DNA of 64,000 bases from Minisyncoccia bacterium. Lineage in GTDB: Bacteria > Patescibacteriota > Minisyncoccia > Phycocordibacterales > DATDWN01. Within the stretch, counting starts at the first letter, position 1; the number at the start of each line of letters is the position of its first letter. The notes beneath the pieces were generated by a model that was not told where the DNA came from, searched no databases, and saw only the letters and a program-made list of their open reading frames with translations. The position numbers and the translations under genes were made by a program. The stretch spans positions 1,939-65,938 of the forward strand of contig JBAQTF010000012.1 in assembly GCA_049296855.1 (NCBI GenBank), read 5' to 3'. Positions 1 through 19,990 of this stretch are shown here, piece after piece.

Positions 1-366
1 AGTACCACATACTGCAATTTCTGGGTAACTATCCATAAACTTTACCTGTTCCTCCAGTCGTGTAGATAAACTAATATCATCACTATCCATACGTGCTACA
101 TATTCTCCCTGTGCTTTACTTAGACCGAGATTTAGACAGTACGTGTGCCCCATATTCTTTTCATTTTTTATGAATTTAATACGTGGATCAGCATACGATT
201 TTATAATATACGGGCTTTTATCCGTTGATCCATCATCAATGATTATAAACTCAAAATTAGGGTAAGTTTGGCCCAAAATGCTATCCATTGACTCTTGAAG
301 GTATTTTTCACTGTTATAACAGGCCATCAAGACCGTAATTCTCGGTTTTTCTATAGTTTTGTCCAT
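1..366 (-). CDS. Glycosyltransferase family 2, N-terminal portion; gene runs off the window start
   Basis: Manual reverse-strand translation from the ATG at 366 gives MDKTIEKPRITVLMACYNSEKYLQESMDSILGQTYPNFEFIIIDDGSTDKS...ARMDSDDISLSTRLEEQVKFMDSYPEIAVCGT. These are typical GT2 DxD/DSDD motifs. The frame stays open to position 1. Confidence 0.8.
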   Translation of the reverse strand, partial: MDKTIEKPRITVLMACYNSEKYLQESMDSILGQTYPNFEFIIIDDGSTDKSPYIIKSYADPRIKFIKNEKNMGHTYCLNLGLSKAQGEYVARMDSDDISLSTRLEEQVKFMDSYPEIAVCGT

Positions 367-1202
367 GCTAGGGGGATTATATCACTTTTGTCATTTTCGG
401 TGCCTGTGAACCATTTTTGAGGCGAAATCACTACTTTTTTAGGATTACTATTAAGCCAAGCCCCCCACCAGCTAAATGTACTGTTTGCAATAATATTGTG
501 TTTACAAAGACTCATCAGTATAAGTTCTTCGTAGTCTGGAATTATAGTATCAGAAACGAAAATAATCGGATATTTTTTAGGGAAGTTCTCTTTTACCCAT
601 TCTATATCGTCGGAGAATACAAAAAACGTAGTTTTGGGAAATTTTTCATCAATTTTGATCATCCCATTTTCGTAGTATGAAATTGGTAAAATCCCATGTT
701 TATCAGAGATTTTTTTTATGGATACATAATCTCCACGTCGAATATGTATGCTTGTTGAATTTGGTAAAGAAATAATTTGCTTCATAACTTCTTGAGAGGC
801 TTTCCCTAATGGTCTTTTTAGCTTGAAATCATTTCTAATCGTATTTTCATTAGCTTTAAAATATTTTTCGTTGTTCCAGTGACCAATGAAATATCCATTA
901 TTTTGTGACAGAATATTTGGGTCAAAAGCAGATGATTTTTCTATAATTTTCTTGCTCTTTAAACCAAGTTTATTTAGGACTTTTTGAAAAGGGGAGTTGT
1001 AGGAAGCAACCTCTTTGTCTGATGCTTCTTCCAATTCCATTACAAAATTATTTATTCTTAGAGATCTTTGACTTTGGTTAGCCTTTTCTAAGTACGACGA
1101 ATCTATTTTTAAACTAGTTTTATGAATCAATGATAAATTACGCCCCAATGCATATTGAAACATTTGATTACCCAGACCGCCCTCTAATTTTATTATGATC
1201 AT
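351..1202 (-). CDS. Alpha-1,2-fucosyltransferase (GT11 family)
   Basis: The protein has the GGLGNQMFQYA, HIRRGDYV and IANSTFSWWGAWL motifs of FutC-like GT11 enzymes. The ORF-track start at 1229 is a TTG. The ATG at 1202 forms a TAATG stop/start overlap with the upstream gene and restores the typical MIIIKLEGGLGNQ N-terminus. Confidence 0.85.
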   Translation of the reverse strand: MIIIKLEGGLGNQMFQYALGRNLSLIHKTSLKIDSSYLEKANQSQRSLRINNFVMELEEASDKEVASYNSPFQKVLNKLGLKSKKIIEKSSAFDPNILSQNNGYFIGHWNNEKYFKANENTIRNDFKLKRPLGKASQEVMKQIISLPNSTSIHIRRGDYVSIKKISDKHGILPISYYENGMIKIDEKFPKTTFFVFSDDIEWVKENFPKKYPIIFVSDTIIPDYEELILMSLCKHNIIANSTFSWWGAWLNSNPKKVVISPQKWFTGTENDKSDIIPLAWTKL

Positions 1203-2848
1203 TAATTGACTATCCAATAACTCAGACAAGCTTTATTTGTAACTGGATTATTGCTCGATTTTATAGTGAAACTTGTACCGGATGTTCTGGCGTTTATAAC
1301 ATAATTTCGTCCTGTGCCTGTATTGCAAGTAATACCAAGTCTTGTGCCAAGAGATGAGTCTTCCATAATAAATATCTGACTATTAGCTGTTACTGCAGTC
1401 GTGTTAACTACTAGAGTACTACCTCCTGTCGGCATAGCAACACTACCAGCTGGAGCAGAGCCACAAGTAGAAGGCGTTGTAGTAGAATTACAATTTGAAA
1501 CTGTACCTAAGTTTGTGATATTTAACAGTCCTTTCACTGTAGTTGTAGCATTTGTCCGTCCAATGTTAATTGATGTTGCTGTTGTTGAACCAAAAGAAAG
1601 AAGTCCTGCAGAATCTGTATCAAAGCCTAATCCATTCGCTAGAACATTTATGAAATTTCCGAAGATGTCACCATTTACATGAAGAGTTGCTGTGGGCGTA
1701 CTTGTTGCGATTCCAACCTTACTATTTATTATCATGTTTTGGCCAGAACGACCGAATGTCATAGTTGTTGCATTCATTGTGCCAAAATTTAGTATTCCAC
1801 TTGTCACAGAATCAAACAGTGATCCAACTGGCATAAAGAAATTTCCAGAAGTAAGCATAGTATCTGAACCGTCGTCAGAAAGAAGAGCATTACCTATAGT
1901 TGTACTTGCTGTAAACTTTACCAGTCTGTTAATTATTCCTGAACCTGTTATTGATTGATTACTACTTGTATAACTTATTATTACTATTCCTGATCCACCT
2001 GATCCACCAGTATTAGTGTTGCCACCTCCACCTCCACCTCCAGTATTTGGATCTCCATTACCAGGAGTTGAACCACTGTCACTTCCATTTCCTCCACCTC
2101 CTATTCCACCTGAACCGGGTGTAATAGCATCTGTCGCGCCACCCCCTCCGCCAGCATAAGTTACATTAGTTCCAGAAATTGAATTTGCGAGGCCAGCTCC
2201 TCCGTCACTTCCATCTGTATGTCCACCAGCCAGATCTTCTCCTGCTGTAGAAGCACCTCCACCCCCCGCACCTCCATTTCCTGACCCACCCCATATTTGA
2301 TTACCCCCTCTATTTCCTTGTCCTCCATTTCCTGACCCACCATTTGAATCATCTCCAAGCCCAGCCGCGCCACCACCAGAACCACCATCTGCGCCAGTAG
2401 CTGTCGTTGTAGAAAAACTTGAGCCACCTCCTCCACCACCTGTAGAAGTAATAGTACTAAATATTGAATCACCCCCATTAGTTCCTTTACTTGTATATAC
2501 TGTTGCACCACCTCCACCACTGCCAACTGTTACAGAATACGACTGACTTGTAATACTAAAATTAGAATCATATTGATAACCACCCGCACCACCTCCACCA
2601 CCATTATATTGATTAGTTGTACCTCCTCCACCACCACCTCCACCAGCTACAACAAGAGCTTGAACAGTACCCCCACCAGTACCAGTGCAATCTAAAGTTC
2701 CACTGGTTGTAAAAGTGTGAATTGTATTTCCACCCGATTGGATAATAGTTCCTCCAGTACAATCTGATGAGAATGCAAAAACAGTTAAAGGAGAGGCTGT
2801 CAAAGTGATTGCTAAGAATAATGATAAGAATGTTACGATTTTTTTCAT
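1202..2848 (-). CDS. Glycine-rich secreted protein (signal peptide, long Gly/Ser/Thr low-complexity region, structured C-terminal domain)
   Basis: N-terminal signal peptide MKKIVTFLSLFLAITLTASPLTVFA. Poly-Gly tracts include GGGGGGGG and GSGNGGQGNRGGN. The C-terminal roughly 200 aa are non-repetitive. No family recognised. Confidence 0.6.
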   Translation of the reverse strand: MKKIVTFLSLFLAITLTASPLTVFAFSSDCTGGTIIQSGGNTIHTFTTSGTLDCTGTGGGTVQALVVAGGGGGGGGTTNQYNGGGGGAGGYQYDSNFSITSQSYSVTVGSGGGGATVYTSKGTNGGDSIFSTITSTGGGGGGSSFSTTTATGADGGSGGGAAGLGDDSNGGSGNGGQGNRGGNQIWGGSGNGGAGGGGASTAGEDLAGGHTDGSDGGAGLANSISGTNVTYAGGGGGATDAITPGSGGIGGGGNGSDSGSTPGNGDPNTGGGGGGGNTNTGGSGGSGIVIISYTSSNQSITGSGIINRLVKFTASTTIGNALLSDDGSDTMLTSGNFFMPVGSLFDSVTSGILNFGTMNATTMTFGRSGQNMIINSKVGIATSTPTATLHVNGDIFGNFINVLANGLGFDTDSAGLLSFGSTTATSINIGRTNATTTVKGLLNITNLGTVSNCNSTTTPSTCGSAPAGSVAMPTGGSTLVVNTTAVTANSQIFIMEDSSLGTRLGITCNTGTGRNYVINARTSGTSFTIKSSNNPVTNKACLSYWIVN

Positions 2849-2941
2849 AAATTATTGATTAGTAAAGATCATTATTAAATATATACAAACAAATTATATA
2901 TCATATATATGATTATGCCTATGTAGTTAAGAACTAAATTA

Positions 2942-3619
2942 TCAATTTTGTTTCCATAACTCCCAAATAAATTCATATTGATAAACAGGATTGTGAGAAT
3001 TTTTCAGTTTATCTTTGATTTCTTGCATTTCCTTTTTTGCTTCTGGAAAGAAATTATGGAACTGAACAAGAACATAGTTAATATTTTTCATATATCCATA
3101 GTCAATGAGTCTGTTTAATAGAGCATACTCTCCACCTTCAATATTTATTTTAATCAAGTCAATCTTCCGTATATTGTTTTGCTTAATGTATTCAATTACA
3201 TCAACTAATTTAATATCAATTTTCTCTTCACTAATTTTTTTTATTGTTGATGAGCCGTCTCCACCTACACTTATTTTTTTAGTCTCAGTTTTGTCAGATA
3301 AGCCGAATTTATTTACTTTTATTTTTTTATTTTTTTCGAACCTGTGCTGTATTTCTACAGAAAAATTTGGTACTGGCTCAAATATATGGATGTTTGAATT
3401 ATACTTTCCATAAATATTACTTGCCCACTGTCCTTCATATCCTCCAACATCAAAAACTACCGAATTTTCATCAAGAAAAGATAATTTATTTGTGGAATCA
3501 CCGATGTCTTTTCTGAATAATGTTTTCTGGTCTCCAAAGGGGGATATATAAACTTTGTTACTAACATAATTAAATAGACTACCGATTTTTGAGAGTATTT
3601 TACTTAGCGAATTTCTCAT
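2942..3619 (-). CDS. FkbM-family methyltransferase
   Basis: VFDVGGYEGQW ... IKINIEGGEY motifs typical of the FkbM methyltransferase family. Confidence 0.7.
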   Translation of the reverse strand: MRNSLSKILSKIGSLFNYVSNKVYISPFGDQKTLFRKDIGDSTNKLSFLDENSVVFDVGGYEGQWASNIYGKYNSNIHIFEPVPNFSVEIQHRFEKNKKIKVNKFGLSDKTETKKISVGGDGSSTIKKISEEKIDIKLVDVIEYIKQNNIRKIDLIKINIEGGEYALLNRLIDYGYMKNINYVLVQFHNFFPEAKKEMQEIKDKLKNSHNPVYQYEFIWELWKQN

Positions 3620-3622
3620 GAT

Positions 3623-4540
3623 TTATTTTATTAGTTTTCTTAAAAAAGCTTTAATTTTATATACAATTTTACTATTTTTTTCGAGCTTAATTATTCTACT
3701 CGTATTCTCAGAAATTTTTTCACCTCTTAATCTAATCGGTTTAGTTTTTAAATTATCAAACCATGTAAATCTTCCTTCCTTACTGAGCATATAGTCAATA
3801 TCCTCATCAATAATTTTATCTAGGAACGGCATAACTGCTATTAAGGCTGACATAGTCACATTTCCCTTTTTGTTTTCTCTTACCCAATGTGAATTAATTC
3901 CTGCTCTATGTAGGTAGTATGTATTTTCTAGAGTAATCATTTTTGAGCCACTAAATAGTTGTCTAATTCCAAATGTCCAAGAATCCAATGTTTGGTTAAC
4001 AATTGTCGGCTCAAAATATGTTCCTGCTTTTTTCCAGCTTGATTTGGTAAATAGATAATTTCCAGTAGGACAAGGAGTGATATGTCCTGCCAAACAATTC
4101 TGTGCGGTTATCTCCTTTTGGAATAACCATTTTTGTGTAATATTATTTATATCGTTCTTAAAGAACCATAATTCACTAAAGGCAACAGCATCAGCATTAT
4201 TTAGAAGTAAATACTCTTTAAGTTTTTTAATGCTTCCTGAAATAAGGATATTATCTGAATCTAGTGTAAAAAGTAAATCATTTTTTGAAATCTGTATGGC
4301 AGTGTTTCTCCCAGCTGCTGCTGTGCCTTTATTGATTTGATGTCTAAAAGAGATAACTTGAGAGTACTTCTTCTTTAGCCTTGTAATTATTTTTGAAGTA
4401 TCATCAGTCGACGCATCATCTACTATGATAACTTCATCACCATCCTCAAAATTCCCATTAAAAATTGAGTCAACAGATTCTTCTATTGTATCGTCACAGT
4501 TATAAGCAGGAATAATAAAACTTATGTTTGATTTATTCAT
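3623..4540 (-). CDS. Glycosyltransferase family 2
   Basis: N-terminus ISFIIPAYNCDDTIEESVDSI...VIIVDDASTDDT...LDSDN is a GT2 Rossmann-like fold with DxD. Confidence 0.8.
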   Translation of the reverse strand: MNKSNISFIIPAYNCDDTIEESVDSIFNGNFEDGDEVIIVDDASTDDTSKIITRLKKKYSQVISFRHQINKGTAAAGRNTAIQISKNDLLFTLDSDNILISGSIKKLKEYLLLNNADAVAFSELWFFKNDINNITQKWLFQKEITAQNCLAGHITPCPTGNYLFTKSSWKKAGTYFEPTIVNQTLDSWTFGIRQLFSGSKMITLENTYYLHRAGINSHWVRENKKGNVTMSALIAVMPFLDKIIDEDIDYMLSKEGRFTWFDNLKTKPIRLRGEKISENTSRIIKLEKNSKIVYKIKAFLRKLIK

Positions 4541-5453
4541 TTTTTTTAAATACCACTATAATACTATGTCCAATGATATGTTCAGAAATGGATGATATCC
4601 CCAAAAAAGCAAGACGATTAGCCATATTTTTTAGTATAAAAGAAAAAGGTCCAAGCTTTTCATTTAATTTTTTCTCAACCACTTTTTCAGCGATTTCGTT
4701 CGCAAATCCCAGATGATATTTTTGTAGGGGTTCAAGATAAATTGATTCTAGCTTCATATTGAAATTATACTGTAATTTAATTAGTGAGTTCATATTCCAC
4801 ATGCCCATATGATGTGGGGGCATATTTAAAGTTGCATCATTTGATTTCATTATTAAGCAGTCATTGTTCGGGATACTTATAACCATTTTACCTCCGGGTT
4901 TTAGGACTGATAAAGAAGAATTGATGAAATTTTTTATATCGTATACATGCTCCATTACCTGAAAAGAACAAACCGTATCGTAGTAGTTTTTTTTATTTTT
5001 AGAAAACTGCTCTATTGTTTCAGGGTAGACAGACAGATCTTTTTCTTTACACTCTTTTACTGCATCAGAGTTTAATTCCAGTCCTTCAACTACTGCTCCA
5101 TTTTCTTTCATTTTTTTAATAAAAGTTCCCCGAGCGCAACCGATCTCTAAGACTTTGTCATTTTTTTTCACTAAGCCGTAAGCTATTTCATGCTCCCATT
5201 TCCAATCCATATAGTACCAAGGGAATTTCTCTAGTTTTTGATAGAAAGAGTCATCACCGGAAATATTTAAAGGATAATAAAATCTGTATCCAGTATCTAG
5301 ACACTTGTATATAGAGACAATTTTTATATTTTTAAAAAACTTTGAAACGTCCATATCCAGCTCTTTTTTATAGCGTTCGATTATGTACGAAGAGGGGATT
5401 TCTCTTTCAGGAACGACATTATTTGATCCTGTAACTGGACTTTTTATTTCCAT
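4533..5453 (-). CDS. Class I SAM-dependent methyltransferase
   Basis: VLEIGCARGTF ... LKPGGKMVISIPN motifs. Confidence 0.7.
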   Translation of the reverse strand: MEIKSPVTGSNNVVPEREIPSSYIIERYKKELDMDVSKFFKNIKIVSIYKCLDTGYRFYYPLNISGDDSFYQKLEKFPWYYMDWKWEHEIAYGLVKKNDKVLEIGCARGTFIKKMKENGAVVEGLELNSDAVKECKEKDLSVYPETIEQFSKNKKNYYDTVCSFQVMEHVYDIKNFINSSLSVLKPGGKMVISIPNNDCLIMKSNDATLNMPPHHMGMWNMNSLIKLQYNFNMKLESIYLEPLQKYHLGFANEIAEKVVEKKLNEKLGPFSFILKNMANRLAFLGISSISEHIIGHSIIVVFKKNE

Positions 5454-6325: not shown

Positions 6326-6339
6326 AGTTCCTAATAAGA

Positions 6340-9196: not shown

Positions 9197-9197
9197 A

Positions 9198-12247: not shown

Positions 12248-12296
12248 TTCCTTAAGTTATCATAATTTTAACCTTGTGTCCAAAACTTTTTATACG

Positions 12297-12325
12297 TAAA
12301 AAAGCGTGGGACTTGCGTCCCACGC
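12297..12325 (-). terminator. Intrinsic terminator at the 3' end of the GC-rich HD gene
   Basis: On the minus strand: GCGTGGGAC-GCAA-GTCCCACGC followed by TTTTTT. It sits 26 nt downstream of the HD gene stop. Confidence 0.75.
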
Positions 12326-12350
12326 CTAATCTGTTTCCGATTGTTCGCCT

Positions 12351-13049: not shown

Positions 13050-13132
13050 CTCGACCCCCCTTTGAAAAAGGTTTTTACCTAGGAAAAGTTCTGTCTGGAC
13101 TCTATCACATTATTATAAAAAAGTCAAATATA

Positions 13133-14143: not shown

Positions 14144-15017
14144 TGATTAGTTTCTTTAGTTTTTTATTTATTGCGTTAGGTGTCATTCCTAAATCCTTGT
14201 CGTGTTCTTCTGCTTTACCATATTTTGTCAGAAATCTTTTAGGCATACCAGCATGAACGATTTCAATAGCTTTTCCGGGAAAAGTATTTATCACGTCGGT
14301 GTCTAGTGCTCCTTCATAATAAGGTTCGCATATCAATATTTTATTTCCAGCGAGATTATTTTTTAGTGTCTTCGAGTCAAAAGGGAACAAGGTCGTGTAG
14401 TAAAGTATCGTTACATCTTCTTTTTCTGTCGCCTCTAGGACGGTTTTCAGCATTGGGCCAACAGCTATGACAGTAGCTTTTTTACCTTTTTTCACAACAT
14501 TCGCTTTACCGAATTTAACTTTTTTACTGTTTTCGTTCCCTCTCTCACTCAAACGAAAATAGGTTGGATTACCATCGGCGTAAGATTGTTTAAAAAGAGT
14601 GTCAAATTCCTCTGCTGTTCCCGGGACGATGATTTCCATTCCTGGGATATTTTTTAATATCGCAATGTCAGACGGACAGTGATGCGTTGCGCCAAGTGCT
14701 GCATAGTCATATGATGCACCGACACTGACAAAGTTTCCTCCGAGTTTCTGAAAAGCAAAATCTACTTTAATTTGCTCTAGTCCTCGTTCAACTATAAATG
14801 GGGTAATAGTGTGAACAACTGGTATTAAATTTGTTTTGGCCAGTCCTGCAGCTAGACTGATTGTTGCTTGTTCTAAGATCCCAATGTTATAAACTCGGGT
14901 GGGGTGTTTAGCGAAAGCATTTCTGAATCCAAATACACCAATATCTCCAAGTATCAAAACGAGTTTTTTGTCTTTATCTAGCACCTTCTCTAAAGTTTTT
15001 ACGAATTGTTTTCTCAT
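14136..15017 (-). CDS. Transketolase, C-terminal (pyrimidine-binding) subunit
   Basis: Transketolase Pyr domain and C-terminal domain. The gene is split from the upstream TPP-binding subunit. Confidence 0.75.
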   Translation of the reverse strand: MRKQFVKTLEKVLDKDKKLVLILGDIGVFGFRNAFAKHPTRVYNIGILEQATISLAAGLAKTNLIPVVHTITPFIVERGLEQIKVDFAFQKLGGNFVSVGASYDYAALGATHHCPSDIAILKNIPGMEIIVPGTAEEFDTLFKQSYADGNPTYFRLSERGNENSKKVKFGKANVVKKGKKATVIAVGPMLKTVLEATEKEDVTILYYTTLFPFDSKTLKNNLAGNKILICEPYYEGALDTDVINTFPGKAIEIVHAGMPKRFLTKYGKAEEHDKDLGMTPNAINKKLKKLING

Positions 15018-15030
15018 TATGTCTTTATAT

Positions 15031-15807
15031 CTAACTACTCAGTTCTTTCACAAGATTCTCGTACTCTTCTTTTGTTGGTGCTTTGTGGTGCCAAGCAGGA
15101 TTACCTTCCATAGTTTTACTTCCATAGCCTTTTATAGTTTCAGCTATTATGGCCAGTGGTTGTCCTATGTGAGGAGTTTTCAGTGCTTGATAAATCTCCT
15201 CTTGATTGTGACCACTAACTTTAATCACAACCCAATCAAATGACTTAAACTTTGATGCGATGTCACTCACAGACACAGCTCGGTCTGTCGAGTGGTTGTG
15301 ATCAACTATACAGATTAAGTTGTCTAATTTGTGATGACTGGCTAAAAGTGCTCCCTCCCAGACTGTACCCTCGTTACTTTCACCGTCGCCTATTATTGCA
15401 TAGACATTCGCTTTGTTTAGAGTGATTCGCATCCCTATAGCCATACCTACAGCAGTAGGGAAGCCATGACCAAGTGATCCAGTAGAAACTTCAACCCCAG
15501 GAACTTTTAGTGAATCTGGATGTCCACCAAGAATCCCTTCGAATTTTCCAAACGATTTCAAATGTTTTTTATGAAAAAATCCTTTGTCTGCGAGAATAGC
15601 ATACAAACCAAGAGAACCATGACCTTTGCTCAAAACGAATCTATCCCTTTTTGGATCGATTGGATTTTTCGGATTAAATTTTAAAACCTTGTCATATAGT
15701 ACGACCAATATATCCAAAATAGAAAAAGCACTAGGAATATGACCTTCTCCAGAGTTGTATGAAGCTTCAACTATTGAAATCTTTAGTTGGTTTATTCTAT
15801 CTTTCAT
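15031..15807 (-). CDS. Transketolase, N-terminal (thiamine-diphosphate-binding) subunit
   Basis: GHIPSAFS...GSLGHGFPTAVGMA...GDGESNEG is the TPP-binding transketolase signature. Confidence 0.8.
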   Translation of the reverse strand: MKDRINQLKISIVEASYNSGEGHIPSAFSILDILVVLYDKVLKFNPKNPIDPKRDRFVLSKGHGSLGLYAILADKGFFHKKHLKSFGKFEGILGGHPDSLKVPGVEVSTGSLGHGFPTAVGMAIGMRITLNKANVYAIIGDGESNEGTVWEGALLASHHKLDNLICIVDHNHSTDRAVSVSDIASKFKSFDWVVIKVSGHNQEEIYQALKTPHIGQPLAIIAETIKGYGSKTMEGNPAWHHKAPTKEEYENLVKELSS

Positions 15808-15812
15808 ATTTT

Positions 15813-17084
15813 CTATGAAATTTTTTCTGTTTTGTAATCCAATATGTTAGATACCTTACCCCAATATGCATCACCTTGTACAGGTTGTCTTGAGTTATTT
15901 TCGTTTGTTATTTCAATACTGATATCTTTTACTGTATCAACGCTACCTCTACCATCACTCAAATGTTTTAACCCAATATTTAGGAAAAGTACTCCGATTT
16001 GGAATAAATATGCTGGTATTTCAACACGAGTCCTGTATTTACCAGGTTCATAGTTCCTGTATCTACCTTCAATATCTCCTTCAGTAGAAAATAAAAGTAA
16101 TTCTCCTTGATAAAAGAAATATAAGAAAAGAAGTTTTTTTTCAAGTGGTTTACGTACTTCATAGTCAATCTCAATGGAGAATTTTTCTCCGATGGGTATT
16201 TGTGCTTGAGGTTTACCATCTTGACTTAAAATAGTTACTTTTTTAATTTGGCCTTCCAAAGTTTCTTTAGCCGGGTATTCTACGATTGAATTTAAAGTTC
16301 TTTCTACGTTAAGGTAGTAGTTCACTACTTCTGAGGTCTCGCCAAATTTAATCAACTCACCGTGTTTAAGCAAGATTGTCTTTGTACACAATCTTTCTAT
16401 AGCATCCAGATTGTGACTAACGAATATAATAGTTCTACCACCAGCCTTAGTAATATCGTCCATTTTCCCTAAACATTTTTTCTGAAATTCTGCGTCACCA
16501 ACAGCTAAAACCTCGTCGACAATTAAAATATCTGGTTCCATATGAGCTGCGACAGAGAAAGCAAGACGGACATACATTCCACTAGAATAATATTTAACTG
16601 GAGTATCAAGGAACTTTCTGACGCCAGAAAACTCGACTATTTCTTCAAACTTACCCGCCACTTCTTTTTTGGTCATTCCAAGAATAGCGCCGTTAAGAAA
16701 AATGTTTTCTCTTCCAGTTAATTCTGGATGGAAACCAGTGCCGACTTCAAGTAGTGAACCAACACGCCCACGGATTTTTATTTCTCCTGTGGTTGGTGGT
16801 GTGATTTGAGATAAAATTTTAAGTAAAGTAGATTTACCTGCACCATTTGGGCCTATAACTCCTATAATTTCTCCTTTTTTAATTGTAAGATTTAAACCTT
16901 TTACCGCCCAAAACTCTTCCTTTTTTTCAAATCCTATAATTGATATAGCTTTAACTTTCAGGAATTTTAATGGGGATTTTAGTATTGTCATTATGACATC
17001 TCGCAAGGCAACATAACCGCCACGCTCCCGTGTGATATCGTATTTTTTTCCTAAGTTTTTTATTTCAATTACATTGCCTTTCAT
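15813..17084 (-). CDS. ABC transporter ATP-binding protein, polysaccharide export (Wzt/TagH-like) with C-terminal extension
   Basis: Walker A motif GPNGAGKSTLLKIL plus ABC signature. There is a roughly 170-aa C-terminal extra domain, as in Wzt. Confidence 0.8.
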   Translation of the reverse strand: MKGNVIEIKNLGKKYDITRERGGYVALRDVIMTILKSPLKFLKVKAISIIGFEKKEEFWAVKGLNLTIKKGEIIGVIGPNGAGKSTLLKILSQITPPTTGEIKIRGRVGSLLEVGTGFHPELTGRENIFLNGAILGMTKKEVAGKFEEIVEFSGVRKFLDTPVKYYSSGMYVRLAFSVAAHMEPDILIVDEVLAVGDAEFQKKCLGKMDDITKAGGRTIIFVSHNLDAIERLCTKTILLKHGELIKFGETSEVVNYYLNVERTLNSIVEYPAKETLEGQIKKVTILSQDGKPQAQIPIGEKFSIEIDYEVRKPLEKKLLFLYFFYQGELLLFSTEGDIEGRYRNYEPGKYRTRVEIPAYLFQIGVLFLNIGLKHLSDGRGSVDTVKDISIEITNENNSRQPVQGDAYWGKVSNILDYKTEKIS

Positions 17085-17101
17085 ATTTTTCTTTAATATT
17101 T

Positions 17102-17998
17102 TTACAGGACATCAGCAAAATATCTCTCAGTCTTTTTAAAAACATATACACCAAAGATCATTAACACAGTTGTACCAGCAAGAGAAATTGATATAAGAAT
17201 CCAATTTATAGGAGCTGTCCCTAGGATGGCCGCTCGGGCACTTTGTATCACCCCCATCATTGGGTTAAGAGCTAAAATCCAAGAATATTTTCCCGCGATA
17301 CTTGCTGGATAAATAACTGGAGTTAAAAACATTAATATTTGAATAAAAAATGGCAAAACATATCGAACATCTCTGTATTTTACATTGATTGCTGATAAGA
17401 ATAATCCACTACCAACAGATGCCATAAAAGTAATTATTAATAGAAGGGGTAGAATCAATAGACCAGATAGGTGAGGAACATATCCATAATAAAACATAAG
17501 TCCGATTAGAATAATGGTAGCAACAGCAAAATCAATTAACTTTGTGATTACCGAGGAAACTGGCAAAATCAGTCTAGGAAAATATACTTTAGTTATTATG
17601 GCCTGGTTACTTGTTAGTGCACTACTAGTATCTCCAAGAGCACTGGAGAAAAATTGCCAAAACAGAAGACCGACATAAACAAAAATAGGATAGGGGACCC
17701 CATCCGATGGCATTTTAGCTAGGCCTCCGAAAAACACAGAAAAAACCACCATTGTTATAAAGGGTTGGAAGATAGCCCAAGCAACACCTATAAATGTTTG
17801 TTTATATCGTACTTTAAGATCTCTCCATGTAAAAAAATATAGGAGCTCTTTATAACGCCAAATTTCTCGGAAATCCTCTAGACTGAAGGTTTTCTTAGGT
17901 TTTATGACAGTTTCTCTAAGGGTATTGGGTTGAGTCATATTTTGAGCAGTATAACAGAAAAACCACTTTTTTTCTATTTTTTCTAAAAGTAGAATCAA
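17102..17998 (-). CDS. ABC-2 type polysaccharide exporter permease (Wzm/TagG-like)
   Basis: Six predicted TM helices and an ABC-2 family pattern. The true start may be the internal MTQPNTL. Confidence 0.75.
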   Translation of the reverse strand: MILLLEKIEKKWFFCYTAQNMTQPNTLRETVIKPKKTFSLEDFREIWRYKELLYFFTWRDLKVRYKQTFIGVAWAIFQPFITMVVFSVFFGGLAKMPSDGVPYPIFVYVGLLFWQFFSSALGDTSSALTSNQAIITKVYFPRLILPVSSVITKLIDFAVATIILIGLMFYYGYVPHLSGLLILPLLLIITFMASVGSGLFLSAINVKYRDVRYVLPFFIQILMFLTPVIYPASIAGKYSWILALNPMMGVIQSARAAILGTAPINWILISISLAGTTVLMIFGVYVFKKTERYFADVL

Positions 17999-18960
17999 TT
18001 CAAATTTTTTGAATGATTATTGATATACCAGTTAATTGTCTTCCTTAATCCTGTTTCAAAGTCTATTTTTGAGACAAATCCAAACTCTTTTTTAGCTTTA
18101 CTTACATCAAGTTTTCGTCTTGGCTGACCATCTGGTTTCGTCTTGTCCCAAACTACTTTTCCATTAAACCCCACAATTTTTGAAATAATTTTTACCAAAT
18201 CTTTTATTTTTATTTCAAAATTACTCCCAATATTTATTGGACGAGAGTCATTATGTTTTATGGTTGCTAGAACGATAGCTCTCGCTGCATCATCTACATA
18301 TAAAAATTCTCGACTGGCTTTTCCTGTGCCCCACACAACGACTTCAGATTTATTTTGTCCCTTTGCTTCGACAAAGCGTTTAATCAGAGCTGGTATTACA
18401 TGTGAATGATCGGGATGAAAATTGTCTCCAGGTCCATAAAGGTTTACACATACTGGATTTATACCATTAAAGCCATATTGTTGTCTGTATGCTTCTAACT
18501 GAACAACGAGCATTTTTTTCGCCAATCCATAAGGAGCGTTGGTTTCTTCTGGATAACCTATCCAAATGTCTTCTTCTCTAAATGGTATTCTAATCGGTAT
18601 TTTGGGGTAAGCGCAAACGGTTCCAACTTGAACAAATTTTTTCACCTTTGCTTTTCGAGCTTCTTCTATCAAATGGATTCCCATCACTGCATTATCATAA
18701 AACAATGTCCCAGGAAATTTTTTATTGAAACCAATACCTCCAACTGTCGCCGCCAAATGGATGATAATATCTTTTTCTTTCACTGCTTTTTCACAATTTT
18801 TTTGAATTCTCAAATCTAGTTCTTTACTTCGCGGACGAAAAATATTTTTTTCTTTTGCTCCATTACGAATCAATTCATTAAAAACAGTTTGACCAAGAAA
18901 GCCGTGACCACCAGTTAGTAGTATTTTTGAGTTTTTTAAATCTATTTCATCTTTTTTCAT
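17995..18960 (-). CDS. fcl: GDP-L-fucose synthase (GDP-4-keto-6-deoxy-D-mannose 3,5-epimerase-4-reductase)
   Basis: [12 protein letters not shown]...HLAATVGGI...GTVCAYPK motifs of Fcl/WcaG. Confidence 0.85.
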
Positions 18961-19990
18961 CTTTTTCTTTTTCTAGATCAGCTTCAGTCATTATTTTTAC
19001 TAATTCTTTAAATTTGACTTTAGGTTTCCATCCAAGATTTTTTCGAGCTTTGCTATAGTCTCCTAGCAATAAATCTACTTCAGCTGGACGAAAATACAAT
19101 GGATCAATCTCCACGATAATTTTTCCTGTTTTTTTATCTATGCCTTTTTCTTTTACACCCTTTCCCTTCCATATAATATCCATGCCCAATATTTTTGCAG
19201 ACTCTTCGACGAACTCTCTTACAGAGTGGGTTTCATTTGTTGCTAATATATAGTCTCCAGGTTTTTTTGCTTGAAGCATAAGCCACATACCATAAACGTA
19301 ATCTTTTGCGTAACCCCAATCTCTTTTTGCATCGAGATTCCCTAAATATAATTTTTCGTCAATACCTAACTTTACCCTAGATAAACCCCTTGTAATTTTT
19401 CTGGTGACAAATGTTTCTCCACGTCTAGGAGATTCATGATTAAACAAGATTCCGTTTACTGCAAACATGTTGTAACTTTCTCTGTAGTTTTTTGTTATCC
19501 AATATGCGTAAACTTTTGCTACTCCATATGGTGAGCGTGGATGGAACATGCTAGTTTCCTTGAGTGGTATCTCTGCCGCTTGACCAAACATTTCACTCGA
19601 AGAAGCTTGGTAGAATCTTGTTTTGTCCAATCCAACTTGTCTCATAGTATCAAGAATTCTAAGAGTCCCAAGTCCCGTAACACCTCCTGTATATTCTGGA
19701 AGATCAAAACTAACTTTAACATGGCTTTGGGCTCCAAGATGATAGATTTCGTCCGGTTTAACTTTTGCAAGTATTCTAGTGAGGCTATTCCCATCAGATA
19801 AGTCTCCGTAATGGAGATGTAGTCGACTTCTCCTCTCGTGCGGGTCTTTATATATGTGGTTTATTCTAGCAGTGTTAAAAGAACTAGATCGACGAATAAT
19901 ACCATGTACCTCGTAACCTTTGTCTAAAAGTAATTCAGTCAGATAAGAGCCATCTTGACCAGTGATACCTGTAATTAAGGCTTTTTTCAT
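18947..19990 (-). CDS. gmd: GDP-mannose 4,6-dehydratase
   Basis: N-terminus [43 protein letters not shown] is highly characteristic of Gmd. Confidence 0.9.

What the first reader, a model, noticed from the sequence alone, without database searches (positions are those of the whole stretch)
1..19990. Lewis-antigen-like fucosylation locus: GDP-fucose synthesis plus both alpha-1,2 (GT11) and alpha-1,3 (GT10) fucosyltransferases with an ABC exporter
gmd and fcl make GDP-L-fucose. The same operon also encodes a FutC-like GT11 and a FutA-like GT10 enzyme, which together build the H/Lewis-Y type difucosylated motif in Helicobacter and mammals.

The operon further carries four SAM methyltransferases, several GT2 enzymes, a Wzm/Wzt exporter whose Wzt has a C-terminal extension, and a glycine-rich secreted protein. 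In an SD-less, low-GC, CPR-like genome, this suggests a methylated and fucosylated surface glycan. It could be host-mimicking or involved in partner recognition, and it may be exported by the ABC-dependent pathway.
Basis: partly seen in the sequence, partly recalled or inferred. Interest (0 to 1): 0.6.

Follow-up and report, generated by a model that had tools for sequence, protein, structure and literature searches.

The report
Fucosylated surface-glycan locus of CPR bacterium
A 20-gene operon in an uncultured ultra-small (Patescibacteria) bacterium makes GDP-fucose, probably builds a fucose-containing, methylated sugar chain and exports it through an ABC transporter; this locus type recurs in the group and is already annotated, shows no evidence of Lewis-antigen mimicry, and carries an uncharacterised thiamine-enzyme cassette that may make an unusual sugar.

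Summary
The gene inventory is real. One minus-strand operon (window 19990 to 1, running about 650 bp past the window start) encodes:
- Gmd and a catalytically intact Fcl
- Wzm and a Wzt with a carbohydrate-binding C-terminal domain
- a GT10 and a GT11 enzyme, both with fucosyltransferase signature motifs
- three clear SAM methyltransferases plus one likely, and GT2 enzymes
- a secreted glycine-rich protein

The source is an NCBI MAG named Minisyncoccia bacterium (Patescibacteria). PGAP already names these genes.

The Lewis-Y / host-mimicry reading is not supported. GT10 resembles Helicobacter FucT only in the roughly 85-residue GDP-fucose motif region. No LacNAc-building enzymes were found. 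The same architecture (Wzy_C/TPR, gmd-fcl-wzm-wzt-GT10, often GT11) recurs in many environmental Patescibacteria.

The main ones form a cassette between wzt and GT10: a split transketolase, a UXS-like SDR, an HD-domain protein, a second SDR and a methyltransferase-like protein. This cassette recurs across phyla. Its transketolase acceptor-site motif is altered, and that altered motif is conserved. In one locus an acetolactate-synthase/YerE-like enzyme takes its place. It probably makes a C-branched or otherwise modified sugar.

Verdict: an ordinary ABC-transporter-dependent glycan locus; the only less ordinary part is the cassette.

The parts
20085..22259 (+). Divergently transcribed membrane protein with a Wzy_C (O-antigen ligase / O-oligosaccharyltransferase family) domain plus C-terminal TPR repeats. 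Candidate enzyme that attaches the exported glycan to its final acceptor.
   Evidence: PF04932 74.2 bits plus many TPR families. The PGAP start gives 724 aa. Homologues at 34-41% identity sit divergently next to gmd or wzm in L016, L019, L023 and L025.
18947..19990 (-). gmd, GDP-mannose 4,6-dehydratase. First gene of the operon.
   Evidence: TIGR01472 577.7 bits (cutoff 415) and PF16363 507.7 bits.
17995..18960 (-). fcl, GDP-L-fucose synthase (3,5-epimerase / 4-reductase).
   Evidence: NF047922 275.7 bits, full length but below the cutoff of 500. The top PDB hits are all GDP-fucose synthases (1BWS, E=4e-61). [15 protein letters not shown] and HSHVIPAL align with the E. coli catalytic S107/C109, Y136/K140 and H179 (residue numbers from memory). 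PGAP name: GDP-L-fucose synthase.
17102..17938 (-). wzm, ABC-2 type polysaccharide export permease.
   Evidence: PF01061 64.3 bits; NF050109 galactan Wzm/RfbD 75 bits. PGAP product of 278 aa.
15813..17084 (-). wzt, polysaccharide ABC transporter ATPase with a C-terminal carbohydrate-binding domain (about aa 262-423).
   Evidence: Best PDB hit is full-length Aquifex aeolicus Wzt (8DKU, E=5e-69), with the alignment running into its CBD. Wzt_C PF14524 E=6.4e-7, 29.9 against 30.4 bits. The C-terminal profile A3 hits the CBD-only structures 8DKY and 6O14 at E=2.7e-5 and 4.7e-5.
15031..15807 (-). Split transketolase, N-terminal (ThDP / PP-domain) subunit.
   Evidence: PF00456 156.8 bits; NF004559 235 bits, below cutoff. 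The ThDP motif GDGESNEG...N is visible in the sequence.
14136..15017 (-). Split transketolase, C-terminal (Pyr plus C domain) subunit, with an altered acceptor-site motif.
   Evidence: PF02779 and PF02780. Best PDB hit is the C-chain of the split transketolase of Carboxydothermus (6YAJ, E=4e-22). SVGASYDYAALG(A/C/P)(T/S)HH(C/A)P(G/A/S/D)D replaces the canonical motif and is conserved in the 14 orthologues whose matched segment covers the region.
13133..14143 (-). SDR of the UDP-glucuronate decarboxylase (UXS/ArnA-like) type. Candidate generator of an NDP-4-keto sugar. Always follows the transketolase pair.
   Evidence: Best PDB hits are human UXS1 2B69 and 4GLL (E about 3e-28). STSEVY, the Y..K pair (CYIEAKR) and LRTY align with the corresponding UXS1 segments. 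The trio tkN-tkC-SDR is conserved in at least 11 other loci.
12351..13049 (-). HD-domain protein (232 aa). A high-GC island with its own Shine-Dalgarno-like sequence. Accessory member of the transketolase cassette.
   Evidence: GC 0.54 and GC3 0.69 against 0.29-0.42 for its neighbours. No Pfam or NCBIfam hit. PGAP name 'HD domain-containing protein'; the family has only 23 clusters. Homologues lie beside tkN-tkC-SDR in L013, L088, L089 and L091.
12302..12327 (-). GC-rich hairpin plus T-run (terminator-like) directly after the HD gene.
   Evidence: 11-bp stem with 7 G-C pairs and a TTTT tail; the strongest terminator-like site in 1-20000.
11198..12247 (-). Second SDR (GalE-like NAD(P)-dependent epimerase / reductase) of the cassette.
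   Evidence: PF01370 101.5 bits; galE model 96.9 bits, below cutoff. Orthologues at 49-79% identity sit just upstream of GT10 in L009, L010, L020 and L042.
10276..11196 (-). Methyltransferase-like protein (306 aa) immediately upstream of GT10.
   Evidence: Only sub-threshold Methyltransf_23/31 hits. The class-I SAM motif YEFGCGPG is present in the sequence. Orthologues at 38-65% identity hold the same position in L010, L011, L013, L018, L020, L033 and L042.
9198..10271 (-). GT10-family (alpha-1,3/4-fucosyltransferase family) glycosyltransferase, 357 aa.
   Evidence: PF00852 61.5 bits. YKFNICYEN...GYITEK...VPVYWG aligns with H. pylori FucT 2NZW residues 221-298. AlphaFold model pLDDT 90. Foldseek top hits are HpFucT (E=6e-11) and FUT9. 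More than 120 full-length relatives at 46% identity or more; those that carry a taxon name (about 15 of the 120 listed) are Patescibacteria.
8357..9196 (-). Class I SAM methyltransferase (279 aa) immediately downstream of GT10.
   Evidence: Methyltransf_25/11/12. Orthologues lie next to GT10 in L008, L018, L029 and L031.
6340..8370 (-). Fusion of a GFO/IDH/MocA sugar dehydrogenase (N-terminal) and an FAD-dependent oxidoreductase (C-terminal).
   Evidence: PF01408 76.3 bits and PF01266 49.6 bits. The N-terminus resembles UDP-GlcNAc 3-dehydrogenase (NF040723, 99 bits, below cutoff). An orthologue at 51% identity sits in the same block in L025.
5444..6325 (-). GT-A-like protein (293 aa), a doubtful GT2.
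   Evidence: PF00535 22 bits, below the cutoff of 23.3. PGAP calls it hypothetical. Orthologues at 57-58% identity occur in L008, L017 and L025.
4533..5453 (-). Class I SAM methyltransferase (306 aa).
   Evidence: Methyltransf_23 66.5 bits. The mt306-GT2 pair is conserved in L017, L022, L024 and L025.
3623..4540 (-). GT2 glycosyltransferase (305 aa).
   Evidence: PF00535 95.4 bits.
2942..3619 (-). FkbM-family methyltransferase.
   Evidence: PF05050 43.5 bits; TIGR01444 61.4 bits (cutoff 37.7).
1202..2848 (-). Secreted glycine-rich protein. Lineage-specific insertion between fkbM and GT11.
   Evidence: Gly_rich_2 71.5 bits; K1-lyase_C 27.2 bits. Phage family phrog_2295, E=4e-52. No homologue in the 80 related loci. 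In L006, fkbM-GT11-GT2 are contiguous. A 93-bp gap lies upstream.
351..1202 (-). GT11-family (alpha-1,2-fucosyltransferase family) glycosyltransferase, 283 aa.
   Evidence: PF01531 104.8 bits, covering profile positions 30-294 of 298. GGLGNQ.FQY, HxRRGDY (153-159), SDD and ANS(T)FSWWGAWL are invariant or nearly invariant across 20 homologues. PGAP name: alpha-1,2-fucosyltransferase.
1..366 (-). N-terminal third of the last gene of the operon, a GT2 (336 aa in the full contig), cut by the window edge.
   Evidence: Translation MDKTIEKPRITVLMACYNSEKYL...IIIDDGSTD. Full gene with PF00535 in L003 10837-11847.

Best explanation
This is an ABC-transporter-dependent cell-surface glycan biosynthesis operon of a Minisyncoccia (Patescibacteria/CPR) bacterium.

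Shown by sequence evidence:
- Gmd and Fcl convert GDP-mannose to GDP-L-fucose.
- A GT10 and a GT11 enzyme carry the GDP-fucose-binding signatures of the two inverting fucosyltransferase families.
- Wzm/Wzt is an O-polysaccharide/teichoic-acid type exporter, and its ATPase carries a carbohydrate-binding domain.

Inferred from the known logic of this pathway:
- The whole chain is assembled on a polyprenyl carrier at the cytoplasmic face by GT10, GT11 and the GT2 enzymes.
- It is decorated by three or four SAM methyltransferases.
- It is recognised by the Wzt CBD, probably through a non-reducing-end cap, and exported in one piece.
- It is then attached to its acceptor by the divergently encoded Wzy_C/TPR protein. 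This organism probably has no LPS, so the acceptor would be a surface protein or wall/membrane anchor.

GT10 is the glycosyltransferase encoded nearest downstream of wzt, either adjacent or separated only by the cassette. Methyltransferase genes flank it. It is therefore the best candidate for adding a terminal, possibly O-methylated, fucose. This is speculative.

A separable cassette lies between wzt and GT10: split transketolase, UXS-like SDR, HD protein, second SDR and a methyltransferase-like protein. By analogy with YerE-type and proposed split-transketolase sugar branching, it most likely makes a modified sugar. The SDR would generate an NDP-4-keto sugar, the ThDP enzyme would add a two-carbon unit, and the second SDR and the methyltransferase would tailor the product.

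The glycan is thus fucose-containing and methylated but structurally unknown. Nothing indicates a Lewis/H-type epitope.
For: - Gene identities.
- Fcl catalytic residues and GDP-fucose-synthase best hits.
- GT10 motif, fold and invariant residues.
- GT11 motifs.
- Wzt similarity to Aquifex Wzt, including the CBD.
- Operon structure: overlapping or 1-17-bp-spaced genes, except around the HD gene and the glycine-rich gene.
- Recurrence: 19 of 22 loci whose GT10 is at least 44% identical and of Patescibacteria type have wzt upstream of GT10, either adjacent or separated only by the cassette. L019 has the same overall order: Wzy_C/TPR divergent, then gmd-fcl-wzm-wzt-TK-GT10.
- At least 13 contigs other than the source contig appear to carry top hits of both GT10 and GT11. 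This is judged from equal longest-contig lengths, a proxy.
- Cassette: tkN-tkC-SDR is conserved in Patescibacteria, in a MAG labelled Eubacteriales (L033) and in a Bacteroidota MAG (L042). It is also conserved in loci found independently through the HD protein (L088, L089, L091).
- In L009 an acetolactate-synthase/YerE-like ThDP enzyme plus a UXS-like SDR occupy the same place.
- The cassette's altered active-site motif is conserved.
- Precedent for ThDP-dependent sugar branching, including the proposed split-gene transketolases: PMC12247030.
Against: - No biochemical data exist for any of these proteins.
- Fcl scores below the NCBIfam equivalog cutoff.
- The GT10 N-terminal domain and its catalytic base could not be aligned to characterised enzymes.
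- No initiating phosphoglycosyltransferase, manB/manC or ugd lies in the window or the flanks examined. Precursor supply and the lipid carrier are therefore assumed.
- The Wzt_C Pfam hit is marginally below gathering, and the PDB hits to CBD structures are weak (E about 1e-5).
- No WbdD-like terminator is present, so the cap idea rests only on gene order.
- The Wzy_C protein could be a polymerase or have an unrelated role.
- The cassette's substrate and product are entirely inferred.
Confidence: 0.7

Rival explanations
1. First reader's reading. GT11 and GT10 together build an H / Lewis-Y type difucosylated LacNAc epitope, as in Helicobacter pylori and mammals, used for host mimicry or partner recognition.
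For: Both fucosyltransferase families and GDP-fucose synthesis are encoded in one operon. The GT10 donor-site motif matches H. pylori FucT and human FUT9.
Against: - Similarity to Helicobacter and human enzymes is limited to about 85 residues around the nucleotide-sugar site. The acceptor domain is clade-specific.
- No Pfam or NCBIfam match to GT25 or GT31 families, which hold the known LacNAc-building enzymes, was found. There is no GalE equivalog either.
- The protein is 357 aa and has no room for the C-terminal heptad-repeat region that, from memory, full-length H. pylori FucT carries.
- The same gene combination is common in free-living-habitat Patescibacteria and other environmental phyla.
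- The locus also encodes six other sugar-modifying enzymes that have no role in Lewis synthesis.
Confidence: 0.04
2. GT10 (and possibly GT11) does not transfer plain L-fucose. It transfers the modified, possibly branched, deoxy sugar made by the transketolase/SDR cassette that sits directly upstream of it.
For: - The cassette is inserted immediately upstream of GT10 in the window and in about 10 other loci, including a Wzx-type locus found independently through the HD protein (L091).
- From memory, at least one GT11 member (E. coli O55 WbgN) uses GDP-colitose. Donor drift within these families therefore has precedent.
Against: - About half of the closest GT10 orthologues lack the cassette and sit in minimal gmd-fcl-wzm-wzt-GT10 loci.
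- In an NJ tree, cassette-positive and cassette-negative loci are intermixed, for example L021/L022 and L020/L026. GT10 specificity therefore does not track the cassette.
- L089 has the cassette with GT11 but no GT10 within 8 kb.
- The UXS-like SDR suggests a UDP-linked rather than a GDP-linked intermediate.
Confidence: 0.1
3. The split transketolase is simply the organism's housekeeping pentose-phosphate transketolase. It happens to lie in this operon, and it plays no role in the glycan.
For: Split transketolases exist as normal metabolic enzymes, for example Carboxydothermus 6YAJ. Patescibacteria have reduced genomes with mixed operons. The N subunit keeps the ThDP motif and, by my reading of the sequence against remembered E. 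coli residue positions, the donor-site histidines.
Against: - The pair is always followed by the same UXS-like SDR inside glycan loci. This includes phyla that normally have a single-chain transketolase: L042 (Bacteroidota) and L033 (labelled Eubacteriales).
- Orthologues are 55-81% identical across these loci. By contrast, the best match to a canonical split transketolase is only E=4e-22 over 218 residues.
- The canonical THDS...GEDGPTHQ acceptor/phosphate-binding motif (recalled from E. coli transketolase) is replaced by a conserved SVGASYDYAALG.THHCP.
- In L009 the same slot is filled by a non-homologous ThDP carboligase of the AHAS/YerE type.
Confidence: 0.1
4. The exported glycan is not a wall or lipid polymer but the donor for protein O-glycosylation. 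It would modify a surface-layer protein, a pilin or the co-encoded glycine-rich protein, and the Wzy_C/TPR protein would act as an O-oligosaccharyltransferase. This would parallel Geobacillus S-layer glycan loci.
For: - A Wzy_C-domain protein is encoded divergently next to gmd here and in four related loci.
- From established knowledge, Wzy_C is the catalytic domain of the PglL/PilO/WsaB O-oligosaccharyltransferases, and Geobacillus slg loci use Wzm/Wzt with methyl-capped chains.
- A secreted Ser/Thr/Gly-rich protein lies in the operon.
- A large surface protein lies 12 kb away, at 32492-34807.
Against: - The Wzy_C domain cannot distinguish ligase, polymerase and oligosaccharyltransferase roles by sequence.
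- The glycine-rich gene is a lineage-specific insertion, absent from all related loci.
- No acceptor has been identified.
Confidence: 0.3

Closest known systems
ABC-transporter-dependent O-polysaccharide systems with a Wzt carbohydrate-binding domain (E. coli O9a/O8, Klebsiella O12/Raoultella, Aquifex aeolicus WzmWzt)
   Same: - Wzm plus a Wzt whose C-terminal domain is homologous to the Aquifex CBD.
- All glycosyltransferases are predicted soluble and cytoplasmic.
- From memory, in O9a and O12 the gene next to wzt encodes the chain terminator. Here it is GT10 or the cassette.
- Methyltransferases are present that could form a methyl cap.
   Different: - The organism is a Patescibacterium, presumably without lipid A or an outer membrane. 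The final acceptor therefore cannot be the lipid A core.
- There is no WbdD-like kinase/methyltransferase with a coiled coil.
- The candidate terminal enzyme is a GT10 family member, which to my knowledge has not been described as a terminator.
S-layer glycan (slg) loci of Geobacillus stearothermophilus / Aneurinibacillus thermoaerophilus (from memory, not tested here)
   Same: - Monoderm context and Wzm/Wzt export.
- GDP- or dTDP-6-deoxyhexose pathway genes.
- O-methyl caps.
- A Wzy_C-family transferase (WsaB) encoded with the cluster.
   Different: - Those glycans are rhamnans or heptans made by rhamnosyl/mannosyl-type transferases.
- They have no GT10/GT11 pair and no ThDP cassette.
- The acceptor protein is known there and unknown here.
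Helicobacter pylori Lewis-antigen system (FutA/FutB GT10, FutC GT11)
   Same: Presence of one GT10 and one GT11 enzyme and a GDP-fucose supply. The GT10 donor-site motif is conserved.
   Different: - No LacNAc backbone enzymes.
- The GT10 acceptor domain is not alignable by sequence or profile, and there are no heptad repeats.
- The genes are clustered in one operon with an ABC exporter, whereas the H. pylori genes are scattered and their O-antigen export route is different (from memory).
- The source is environmental rather than an animal-host organism.
Enterobacterial O-antigen clusters with gmd-fcl plus a GT11 fucosyltransferase (E. coli O86 WbnK, O128 WbsJ, O127 WbiQ, O126 WbgL; from memory)
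   Same: gmd and fcl are adjacent in the cluster. The GT11 enzyme has the HxRRGDY motif and is embedded among other glycosyltransferases.
   Different: - Those clusters are Wzx/Wzy-dependent and make blood-group-like repeat units on LPS.
- This locus is Wzm/Wzt-dependent.
- It additionally has GT10, many methyltransferases and the ThDP cassette.
ThDP-dependent sugar C-branching: YerE-like lyases in O-antigens (yersiniose, erwiniose, caryophyllose) and the proposed split-gene transketolases of miharamycin/amipurimycin (PMC12247030)
   Same: - A ThDP carboligase is encoded next to an SDR able to generate or reduce an NDP-keto sugar.
- A YerE/AHAS-like enzyme substitutes for the transketolase pair in the related locus L009.
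- The split-gene transketolase format matches the format proposed for miharamycin and amipurimycin.
   Different: - According to the review, the 13 predicted sugar-branching transketolases are all from Streptomycetes secondary-metabolite clusters, and none has been characterised.
- Here the split transketolase sits in cell-surface glycan loci of Patescibacteria, Bacteroidota and a Eubacteriales-labelled MAG. It is accompanied by a UXS-like SDR and a small HD-protein family.
- No product is known.

Membership tests
GT10 (alpha-1,3/4-fucosyltransferase family) | Match to the family profile above the curated threshold | tested here: met
   PF00852 61.5 bits against 23.9. The match covers only aa 243-339 of the 365-aa ORF, which is profile positions 45-144 of 182. 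PGAP name: 'glycosyltransferase family 10'.
GT10 (alpha-1,3/4-fucosyltransferase family) | Conserved alpha-1,3-FucT donor motif (F/Y-x-x-x-F/Y-E-N ... Y-x-T-E-K) that binds GDP-fucose | tested here: met
   YKFNICYENLSGTNGYITEKIFD aligns with H. pylori YKFNLCFENTQG-YGYVTEKIID. Y254, E255 and N256 are invariant and E266 and K267 nearly invariant in 32 homologues.
GT10 (alpha-1,3/4-fucosyltransferase family) | GT-B fold most similar to solved GT10 structures | tested here: met
   The AlphaFold model has pLDDT 90.1. The Foldseek top hits are HpFucT 2NZX/2NZW (E=6e-11, TM 0.52-0.55) and FUT9 8D0O. SenB and GT4 GT-B enzymes score similarly on TM.
GT10 (alpha-1,3/4-fucosyltransferase family) | Catalytic base Glu in the N-terminal domain (E95 in HpFucT) and the donor-binding Arg (R195) | tested here: inconclusive
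   Invariant E114 (after strand 108-112, LVLWEGK) and invariant R191 (start of helix 188-201) are positional candidates.
GT10 (alpha-1,3/4-fucosyltransferase family) | Transfers L-fucose in alpha-1,3/4 linkage to GlcNAc/Glc of a LacNAc-type acceptor | not testable with these tools
   Requires an enzyme assay. The acceptor domain is not alignable to characterised members.
GT11 (alpha-1,2-fucosyltransferase family) | Near-full-length match to the family profile above threshold | tested here: met
   PF01531 104.8 bits against 23.9, covering profile positions 30-294 of 298.
GT11 (alpha-1,2-fucosyltransferase family) | Signature motifs (HxRRGDY motif I; FSDD; SxFSWW.A.L motif IV) | tested here: met
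   HIRRGDY, FSDD and ANSTFSWWGAWL are present. H153, R155, R156, G157, D158, Y159, S197, D198, D199, W245 and W246 are invariant in 20 homologues. Motif definitions are from memory of the GT11 literature.
GT11 (alpha-1,2-fucosyltransferase family) | Alpha-1,2-fucosylation of a terminal galactose | not testable with these tools
   No solved GT11 structure matched by sequence at E<=1. An assay is needed.
De novo GDP-L-fucose pathway (Gmd + Fcl/WcaG) | Gmd equivalog | tested here: met
   TIGR01472 577.7 bits against 415.
De novo GDP-L-fucose pathway (Gmd + Fcl/WcaG) | Fcl with the Ser/Thr-Tyr-Lys triad plus the Cys/His epimerisation pair | tested here: met
   T, C, Y, K and H align with E. coli S107, C109, Y136, K140 and H179 in the 1BWS alignment. 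The 18 best PDB hits are all GDP-fucose synthases. Caveat: NF047922 gives 275.7 bits, below its cutoff of 500. Residue numbering is from memory.
ABC-transporter-dependent (Wzm/Wzt) glycan export with a CBD-bearing Wzt | ABC-2 permease plus a Wzt-type nucleotide-binding domain | tested here: met
   PF01061 and PF00005. The best solved relative is Aquifex Wzt (E=5e-69), followed by TarH/TagH and mycobacterial RfbE.
ABC-transporter-dependent (Wzm/Wzt) glycan export with a CBD-bearing Wzt | C-terminal carbohydrate-binding domain homologous to known Wzt CBDs | tested here: met
   Wzt_C E=6.4e-7, 29.9 against 30.4 bits. Profile A3 hits the CBD-only chains 8DKY and 6O14 at E=2.7e-5 and 4.7e-5 over 115 residues. 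The match is weak but specific.
ABC-transporter-dependent (Wzm/Wzt) glycan export with a CBD-bearing Wzt | Dedicated chain terminator that creates the cap read by the CBD | tested here: inconclusive
   No WbdD- or WbbB-like protein is present. Candidates are GT10 with its flanking methyltransferases, by gene order only.
ABC-transporter-dependent (Wzm/Wzt) glycan export with a CBD-bearing Wzt | Initiating polyprenyl-phosphate glycosyl-1-phosphate transferase | tested here: not met
   None was found in the operon, in window positions 20000-46300, or in the 10 kb beyond the window start. One may lie elsewhere in the genome.
Lewis-antigen (H. pylori-type) molecular mimicry system | Enzymes that build the Gal-beta-1,4-GlcNAc (LacNAc) backbone | tested here: not met
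   Pfam and NCBIfam scans of all 19 complete operon proteins show only generic GT2 enzymes and no GT25 or GT31 hits.
Lewis-antigen (H. pylori-type) molecular mimicry system | FucT orthologous to FutA/B, including the acceptor domain and the C-terminal heptad repeats | tested here: not met
   Only about 85 residues align. The protein ends at residue 357 with no repeat region. That FutA/B carry heptad repeats is from memory.
ThDP-dependent sugar C-branching module (YerE-like / split transketolase) | Intact ThDP enzyme (GDG...N motif; cofactor-activating Glu) | tested here: met
   IGDGESNEG...DHN in the N subunit and GILEQ in the C subunit.
ThDP-dependent sugar C-branching module (YerE-like / split transketolase) | Genetic coupling to an enzyme that produces an NDP-keto sugar | tested here: met
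   A UXS-like SDR directly follows the transketolase pair in the window and in at least 11 loci. gmd also lies in the operon.
ThDP-dependent sugar C-branching module (YerE-like / split transketolase) | Carboligation onto a keto sugar, giving a tertiary alcohol branch | not testable with these tools
   According to PMC12247030 section 2.3, no split transketolase has been shown to do this in vitro.

The most novel reading that the evidence does not exclude
The conserved cassette (split transketolase, UXS-like SDR, then variably an HD protein, a second SDR / Fcl-like reductase and a methyltransferase-like protein) is a previously undescribed route to a C-branched (hydroxyacetyl-type) or otherwise chain-extended sugar for cell-surface glycans.

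If so, it would be the first split-transketolase sugar-branching system outside Streptomyces nucleoside-antibiotic clusters. It spreads as a module among Patescibacteria, Bacteroidota and a Eubacteriales-labelled MAG, and it is functionally interchangeable with YerE/AHAS-like enzymes.

A further speculative point is that GT10 adds a terminal, methylated fucose that serves as the export signal read by the Wzt carbohydrate-binding domain.
Probability: 0.3. Interest if true: 0.6.

Novelty: new member of a known kind. Interest (0 to 1): 0.33.

Why it matters
Lewis-type mimicry in a CPR bacterium would be striking, but the evidence does not support it.

**What remains useful.**
1. A well-defined, recurrent glycan-locus architecture of Parcubacteria-type Patescibacteria: Wzy_C/TPR divergent from gmd-fcl-wzm-wzt(CBD)-GT10, followed by GT11-GT2. 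The surface glycans of these organisms are essentially unstudied and are plausible mediators of attachment to host cells.
2. A testable candidate for an uncharacterised ThDP-dependent sugar-modifying module. A recent review (PMC12247030) lists split-gene transketolases acting on keto sugars as unproven and known only from Streptomycetes. A widespread surface-glycan version would extend that enzymology. It would also offer more sequences to try in vitro.

Tried and rejected
- **Exact look-up of the 365-aa GT10 ORF** found nothing. The annotated start is 8 codons downstream; this was resolved through the gmd and GT11 look-ups.
- **GT11 against PDB sequences:** no hit at E<=1, so no structural check was possible.
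The register around R195 was unreliable, so the catalytic-base assignment stays inconclusive.
It was replaced by a profile search of the C-terminal domain against the PDB.
- **Literature searches:** 'transketolase' plus 'O-antigen gene cluster', and 'fucosyltransferase' plus 'Patescibacteria', returned nothing relevant.
- **GT10 as the dedicated transferase of the cassette sugar:** considered and largely rejected, because cassette-positive and cassette-negative loci are intermixed in the GT10 tree.
- **The HD gene as a random foreign insertion:** considered and rejected. Four of five homologues examined in other contigs lie beside the transketolase-SDR trio. Its high GC remains unexplained.
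- **Promoter/terminator scan:** promoter-like sites were not above the shuffled expectation (61 against 70 ± 9), so it says nothing about promoters.

Full report
**1. What is in the sequence**

Window positions 19990 down to 1 hold one tightly packed run of minus-strand genes. Neighbouring genes overlap or lie 1-17 bp apart. There are three exceptions: gaps of 83 and 103 bp on either side of ORF 12351-13049, and a gap of 93 bp upstream of ORF 1202-2848.

Exact-sequence look-ups place the window on NCBI contig JBAQUU010000002.1 (151 kb) of assembly GCA_049297715.1. NCBI names the organism 'MAG: Minisyncoccia bacterium'. That class belongs to phylum Minisyncoccota, which to my knowledge is the formal name for Patescibacteria/CPR.

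On that contig the operon ends about 650 bp beyond window position 1, with a 336-aa GT2. A second, convergent glycan operon follows. It encodes a methyltransferase, a GT2, an SDR, a protein with Methyltransf_13/14 domains (C-methyltransferase type), a GT4 and an MBOAT. On the other side, the gene after gmd is a divergent Wzy_C/TPR membrane protein, followed by SecA and housekeeping genes.

**2. Check of the listed genes**

- **Gmd** passes its equivalog threshold (577.7 bits against 415).
- **Fcl candidate.** It scores below the NCBIfam cutoff (275.7 against 500). Its 18 best solved relatives are nevertheless all GDP-L-fucose synthases (E. coli GFS, E=4e-61). In the printed alignment [15 protein letters not shown] and HSHVIPAL match the E. 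coli segments that hold S107/C109, Y136/K140 and H179. The residue numbers are from my memory of the GFS literature. I accept it as Fcl, and PGAP does too.
- **Wzm** is an ABC-2 permease.
- **Wzt.** It is closest to full-length Aquifex aeolicus Wzt (8DKU, E=5e-69), and the alignment continues into that protein's carbohydrate-binding domain. Pfam Wzt_C falls just under gathering (29.9 against 30.4 bits, E=6.4e-7). A profile of the C-terminal 160 residues, built from 12 orthologues, hits the two CBD-only Aquifex structures (8DKY at 2.7e-5, 6O14 at 4.7e-5).
- **GT11.** The 283-aa protein matches PF01531 over nearly the whole profile (104.8 bits). It has GGLGNQMFQY, HIRRGDY, FSDD and ANSTFSWWGAWL. 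These motifs are invariant or nearly invariant in 20 homologues down to 46% identity.
- **GT10.** The 357-aa protein matches PF00852 (61.5 bits). It aligns with H. pylori FucT and human FUT9 across YKFxxCYEN...GYITEK...PxYWG. An AlphaFold model (pLDDT 90) is most similar to HpFucT and FUT9.
- **Methyltransferases.** Three are clear. A fourth (10276-11196) is sub-threshold but has a class-I SAM motif.
- **Glycine-rich protein.** It has a signal peptide and a Gly_rich_2 domain.

**3.

Six further genes belong to the operon:
- a split transketolase (N subunit 15031-15807, C subunit 14136-15017);
- an SDR whose best solved relatives are UDP-glucuronate decarboxylases (13133-14143; E about 3e-28, with STSEVY, the Y..K pair and LRTY aligned to UXS1);
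- a 232-aa HD-domain protein (12351-13049);
- a GalE-like SDR (11198-12247);
- a fusion of a GFO/IDH/MocA sugar dehydrogenase with an FAD oxidoreductase (6340-8370).

**4. Comparison with related loci**

GT10 has more than 120 full-length relatives at 46% identity or more. All those that carry a taxon name, about 15 of the 120 listed, are Patescibacteria. GT11 shows the same pattern.

At least 13 contigs other than the source contig appear in both top-120 lists, judged by equal longest-contig length. That criterion is a proxy, not proof of co-location.

I fetched 80 genome loci carrying GT10 relatives and mapped all window proteins onto them.
- In 19 of the 22 loci whose GT10 is at least 44% identical and of Patescibacteria type, wzt lies upstream of GT10. 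It is either directly adjacent or separated only by the cassette described below.
- Within 10 kb of GT10, gmd appears in 21 of 80 loci, an Fcl-like gene in 33 of 80, and GT11 in 17 of 80.
- L019 has the same overall order as the window: Wzy_C/TPR divergent, then gmd-fcl-wzm-wzt-TK-GT10.
- L006 has the same operon end: fkbM-GT11-GT2, then a convergent gene of unknown function.

This is a recurrent, modular locus type and not a singular feature of this genome.

More distant GT10 relatives occur in Omnitrophota, Bacteroidota, Chloroflexia-labelled MAGs, DPANN-type archaea (Woesearchaeota, Micrarchaeota), Altiarchaeia, Chlamydiae and Dependentiae. Many of these match only from about residue 100 onward. 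Similarity to Helicobacter is confined to the donor-site region.

**5. The cassette**

In the window and in about ten of the related loci, a block tkN-tkC-SDR(UXS-like)-(SDR or Fcl-like)-(methyltransferase-like 306 aa) lies between wzt and GT10. The block also occurs, upstream of GT10, in a MAG labelled Eubacteriales (L033) and in a Bacteroidota MAG (L042).

The HD protein belongs to a family of only 23 clusters. Of five homologues examined in other contigs, four lie beside a tkN-tkC-SDR trio: L013, L088, L089 and L091. The fifth sits at a truncated contig end next to an integrase. L091 is a locus with a Polysacc_synt (Wzx-type flippase) gene. Its order, TK-TK-SDR-SDR-HD-MT-307aa-MT-GT10, closely matches the window.

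In L009 the slot is filled by a 617-aa acetolactate-synthase-like ThDP enzyme (417 bits, below the equivalog cutoff). That is the superfamily of YerE. A UXS-like SDR follows it.

Fourteen cassette tkC orthologues, 59-81% identical to the window protein, conserve SVGASYDYAALG.THHCP (one has A for C) and GDIGVFGFR. At these positions the canonical split transketolase of Carboxydothermus has ATHAGLTVGEDGASHQ and DADLSKST. From memory of E. coli transketolase, the replaced residues correspond to H461, D469 and S385, which bind the sugar-phosphate substrate.

A 2025 review states that YerE-like enzymes branch 4-keto sugars for O-antigens. It also states that split-gene transketolases are only proposed to do so (miharamycin, amipurimycin). 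It lists 13 predicted cases, all from Streptomycetes, none characterised (PMC12247030).

My inference is as follows. The SDR makes an NDP-4-keto sugar, the ThDP enzyme adds a C2 unit, and the other genes tailor the product. This is inference only.

An NJ tree of GT10 proteins shows cassette-positive and cassette-negative loci intermixed. The cassette is therefore a mobile module, and GT10 is probably not its dedicated transferase.

**6. Mechanism proposed**

*Shown:*
- enzymes for GDP-L-fucose synthesis;
- two enzymes with the donor-site signatures of the inverting fucosyltransferase families;
- a Wzm/Wzt exporter with a CBD.

*Inferred from the established logic of ABC-transporter-dependent glycan assembly:*
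- complete cytoplasmic assembly on a polyprenyl carrier;
- methylation;
- recognition by the Wzt CBD, probably of a non-reducing-end cap;
- export in one piece;
- attachment by the Wzy_C/TPR protein to a protein or wall/membrane acceptor.

*Speculative:* GT10, which follows wzt and is flanked by methyltransferase genes, makes a methyl-fucose cap. The position of terminator genes in O9a and O12 loci is the analogy, and it is from memory.

**7. Why 'Lewis-like' fails**

- No LacNAc-building enzymes were detected.
- The GT10 acceptor domain is not alignable to characterised Lewis enzymes.
- The 357-aa protein has no heptad-repeat tail.
- The architecture is common in environmental Patescibacteria.
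- Many additional sugar-modifying genes point to a different and more elaborate glycan.

Co-occurrence of GT10 and GT11 shows only that two fucose (or fucose-like) residues may be added. It does not show that they go onto one LacNAc unit.

**8. Novelty and score**

All genes already carry sensible PGAP names. The locus is a new member of a known kind, an ABC-transporter-dependent glycan cluster.

The more novel element is the split-transketolase cassette with its HD partner. I give about 0.3 probability that it is a genuine new sugar-branching route in surface glycans. Overall interest is 0.33.

Noticed in passing
window 12302-13049 (-): The HD-domain gene is a sharply bounded high-GC island (GC 0.54, GC3 0.69) in an operon of GC 0.29-0.42. 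It has the only G-rich Shine-Dalgarno-like leader (AAAGGGGGGTCGAG-ATG) and a strong terminator-like hairpin directly after its stop, in the middle of the operon. Its homologue in L013 is also GC-enriched (0.48 against 0.39). Why a gene that travels with the transketolase cassette keeps a foreign-looking composition is unexplained.
   Followed up: partly
window 1202-2848 (-): The secreted glycine-rich protein matches phage protein family phrog_2295 (E=4e-52) and, weakly, a tail-fibre-assembly family and K1-lyase_C. It is absent from all 80 related loci and interrupts the otherwise contiguous fkbM-GT11-GT2 block seen in L006. It therefore looks like a lineage-specific insertion of a phage-like fibre protein gene into the glycan operon.
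   Followed up: partly
L003 11825-20852 (same contig, beyond window position 1): A second, convergent glycan operon lies beyond the window start. It encodes a 572-aa protein with no Pfam hit, a methyltransferase, a 239-aa GT2, an SDR, a protein with Methyltransf_13/14 domains (C-methyltransferase type), a GT4, a 327-aa protein of unknown function and an MBOAT acyltransferase. The glycan region is therefore at least 31 kb long.
   Followed up: no
L009 4889-7742 (uncultured bacterium CAIOTC010000018.1): In this close relative (GT10 58% identical, sdrB 79% identical) the split transketolase is replaced by an acetolactate-synthase/YerE-like ThDP enzyme plus a UXS-like SDR. Two DegT-type aminotransferase genes accompany them. 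This looks like a non-homologous replacement at the same locus position.
   Followed up: partly
L007 5524-5910 (Parcubacteria JAPLYL010000003.1): A PemK-family toxin gene is inserted between wzm and wzt of the orthologous locus.
   Followed up: no
L006 3612-5297 and 16376-17872: Two B12-binding radical-SAM enzymes lie within the orthologous glycan locus. One sits between wzt and the transketolase pair. This suggests further unusual sugar chemistry, possibly radical methylation, in relatives.
   Followed up: no
loci L011, L013-L019, L021, L022, L024, L026, L037: The Fcl-like gene next to gmd or wzm in most other Patescibacteria loci is only about 40% identical to the window Fcl, although wzm is 52-82% identical. 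Fcl in L025, L029, L033, L043, L050 and L068 is 56-59% identical. Several cassette-bearing loci carry a second Fcl-like gene (37-38% identical) in place of the GalE-like SDR. There may be functionally different 4-keto-6-deoxyhexose reductases in this clade.
   Followed up: no
window 32492-34807 (+): A 771-aa predicted surface protein has Bact_surface_Ig-like, He_PIG, DUF11 and peptidoglycan-binding domains. It lies 12 kb from the glycan locus and is a possible glycosylation target or adhesin.
   Followed up: no
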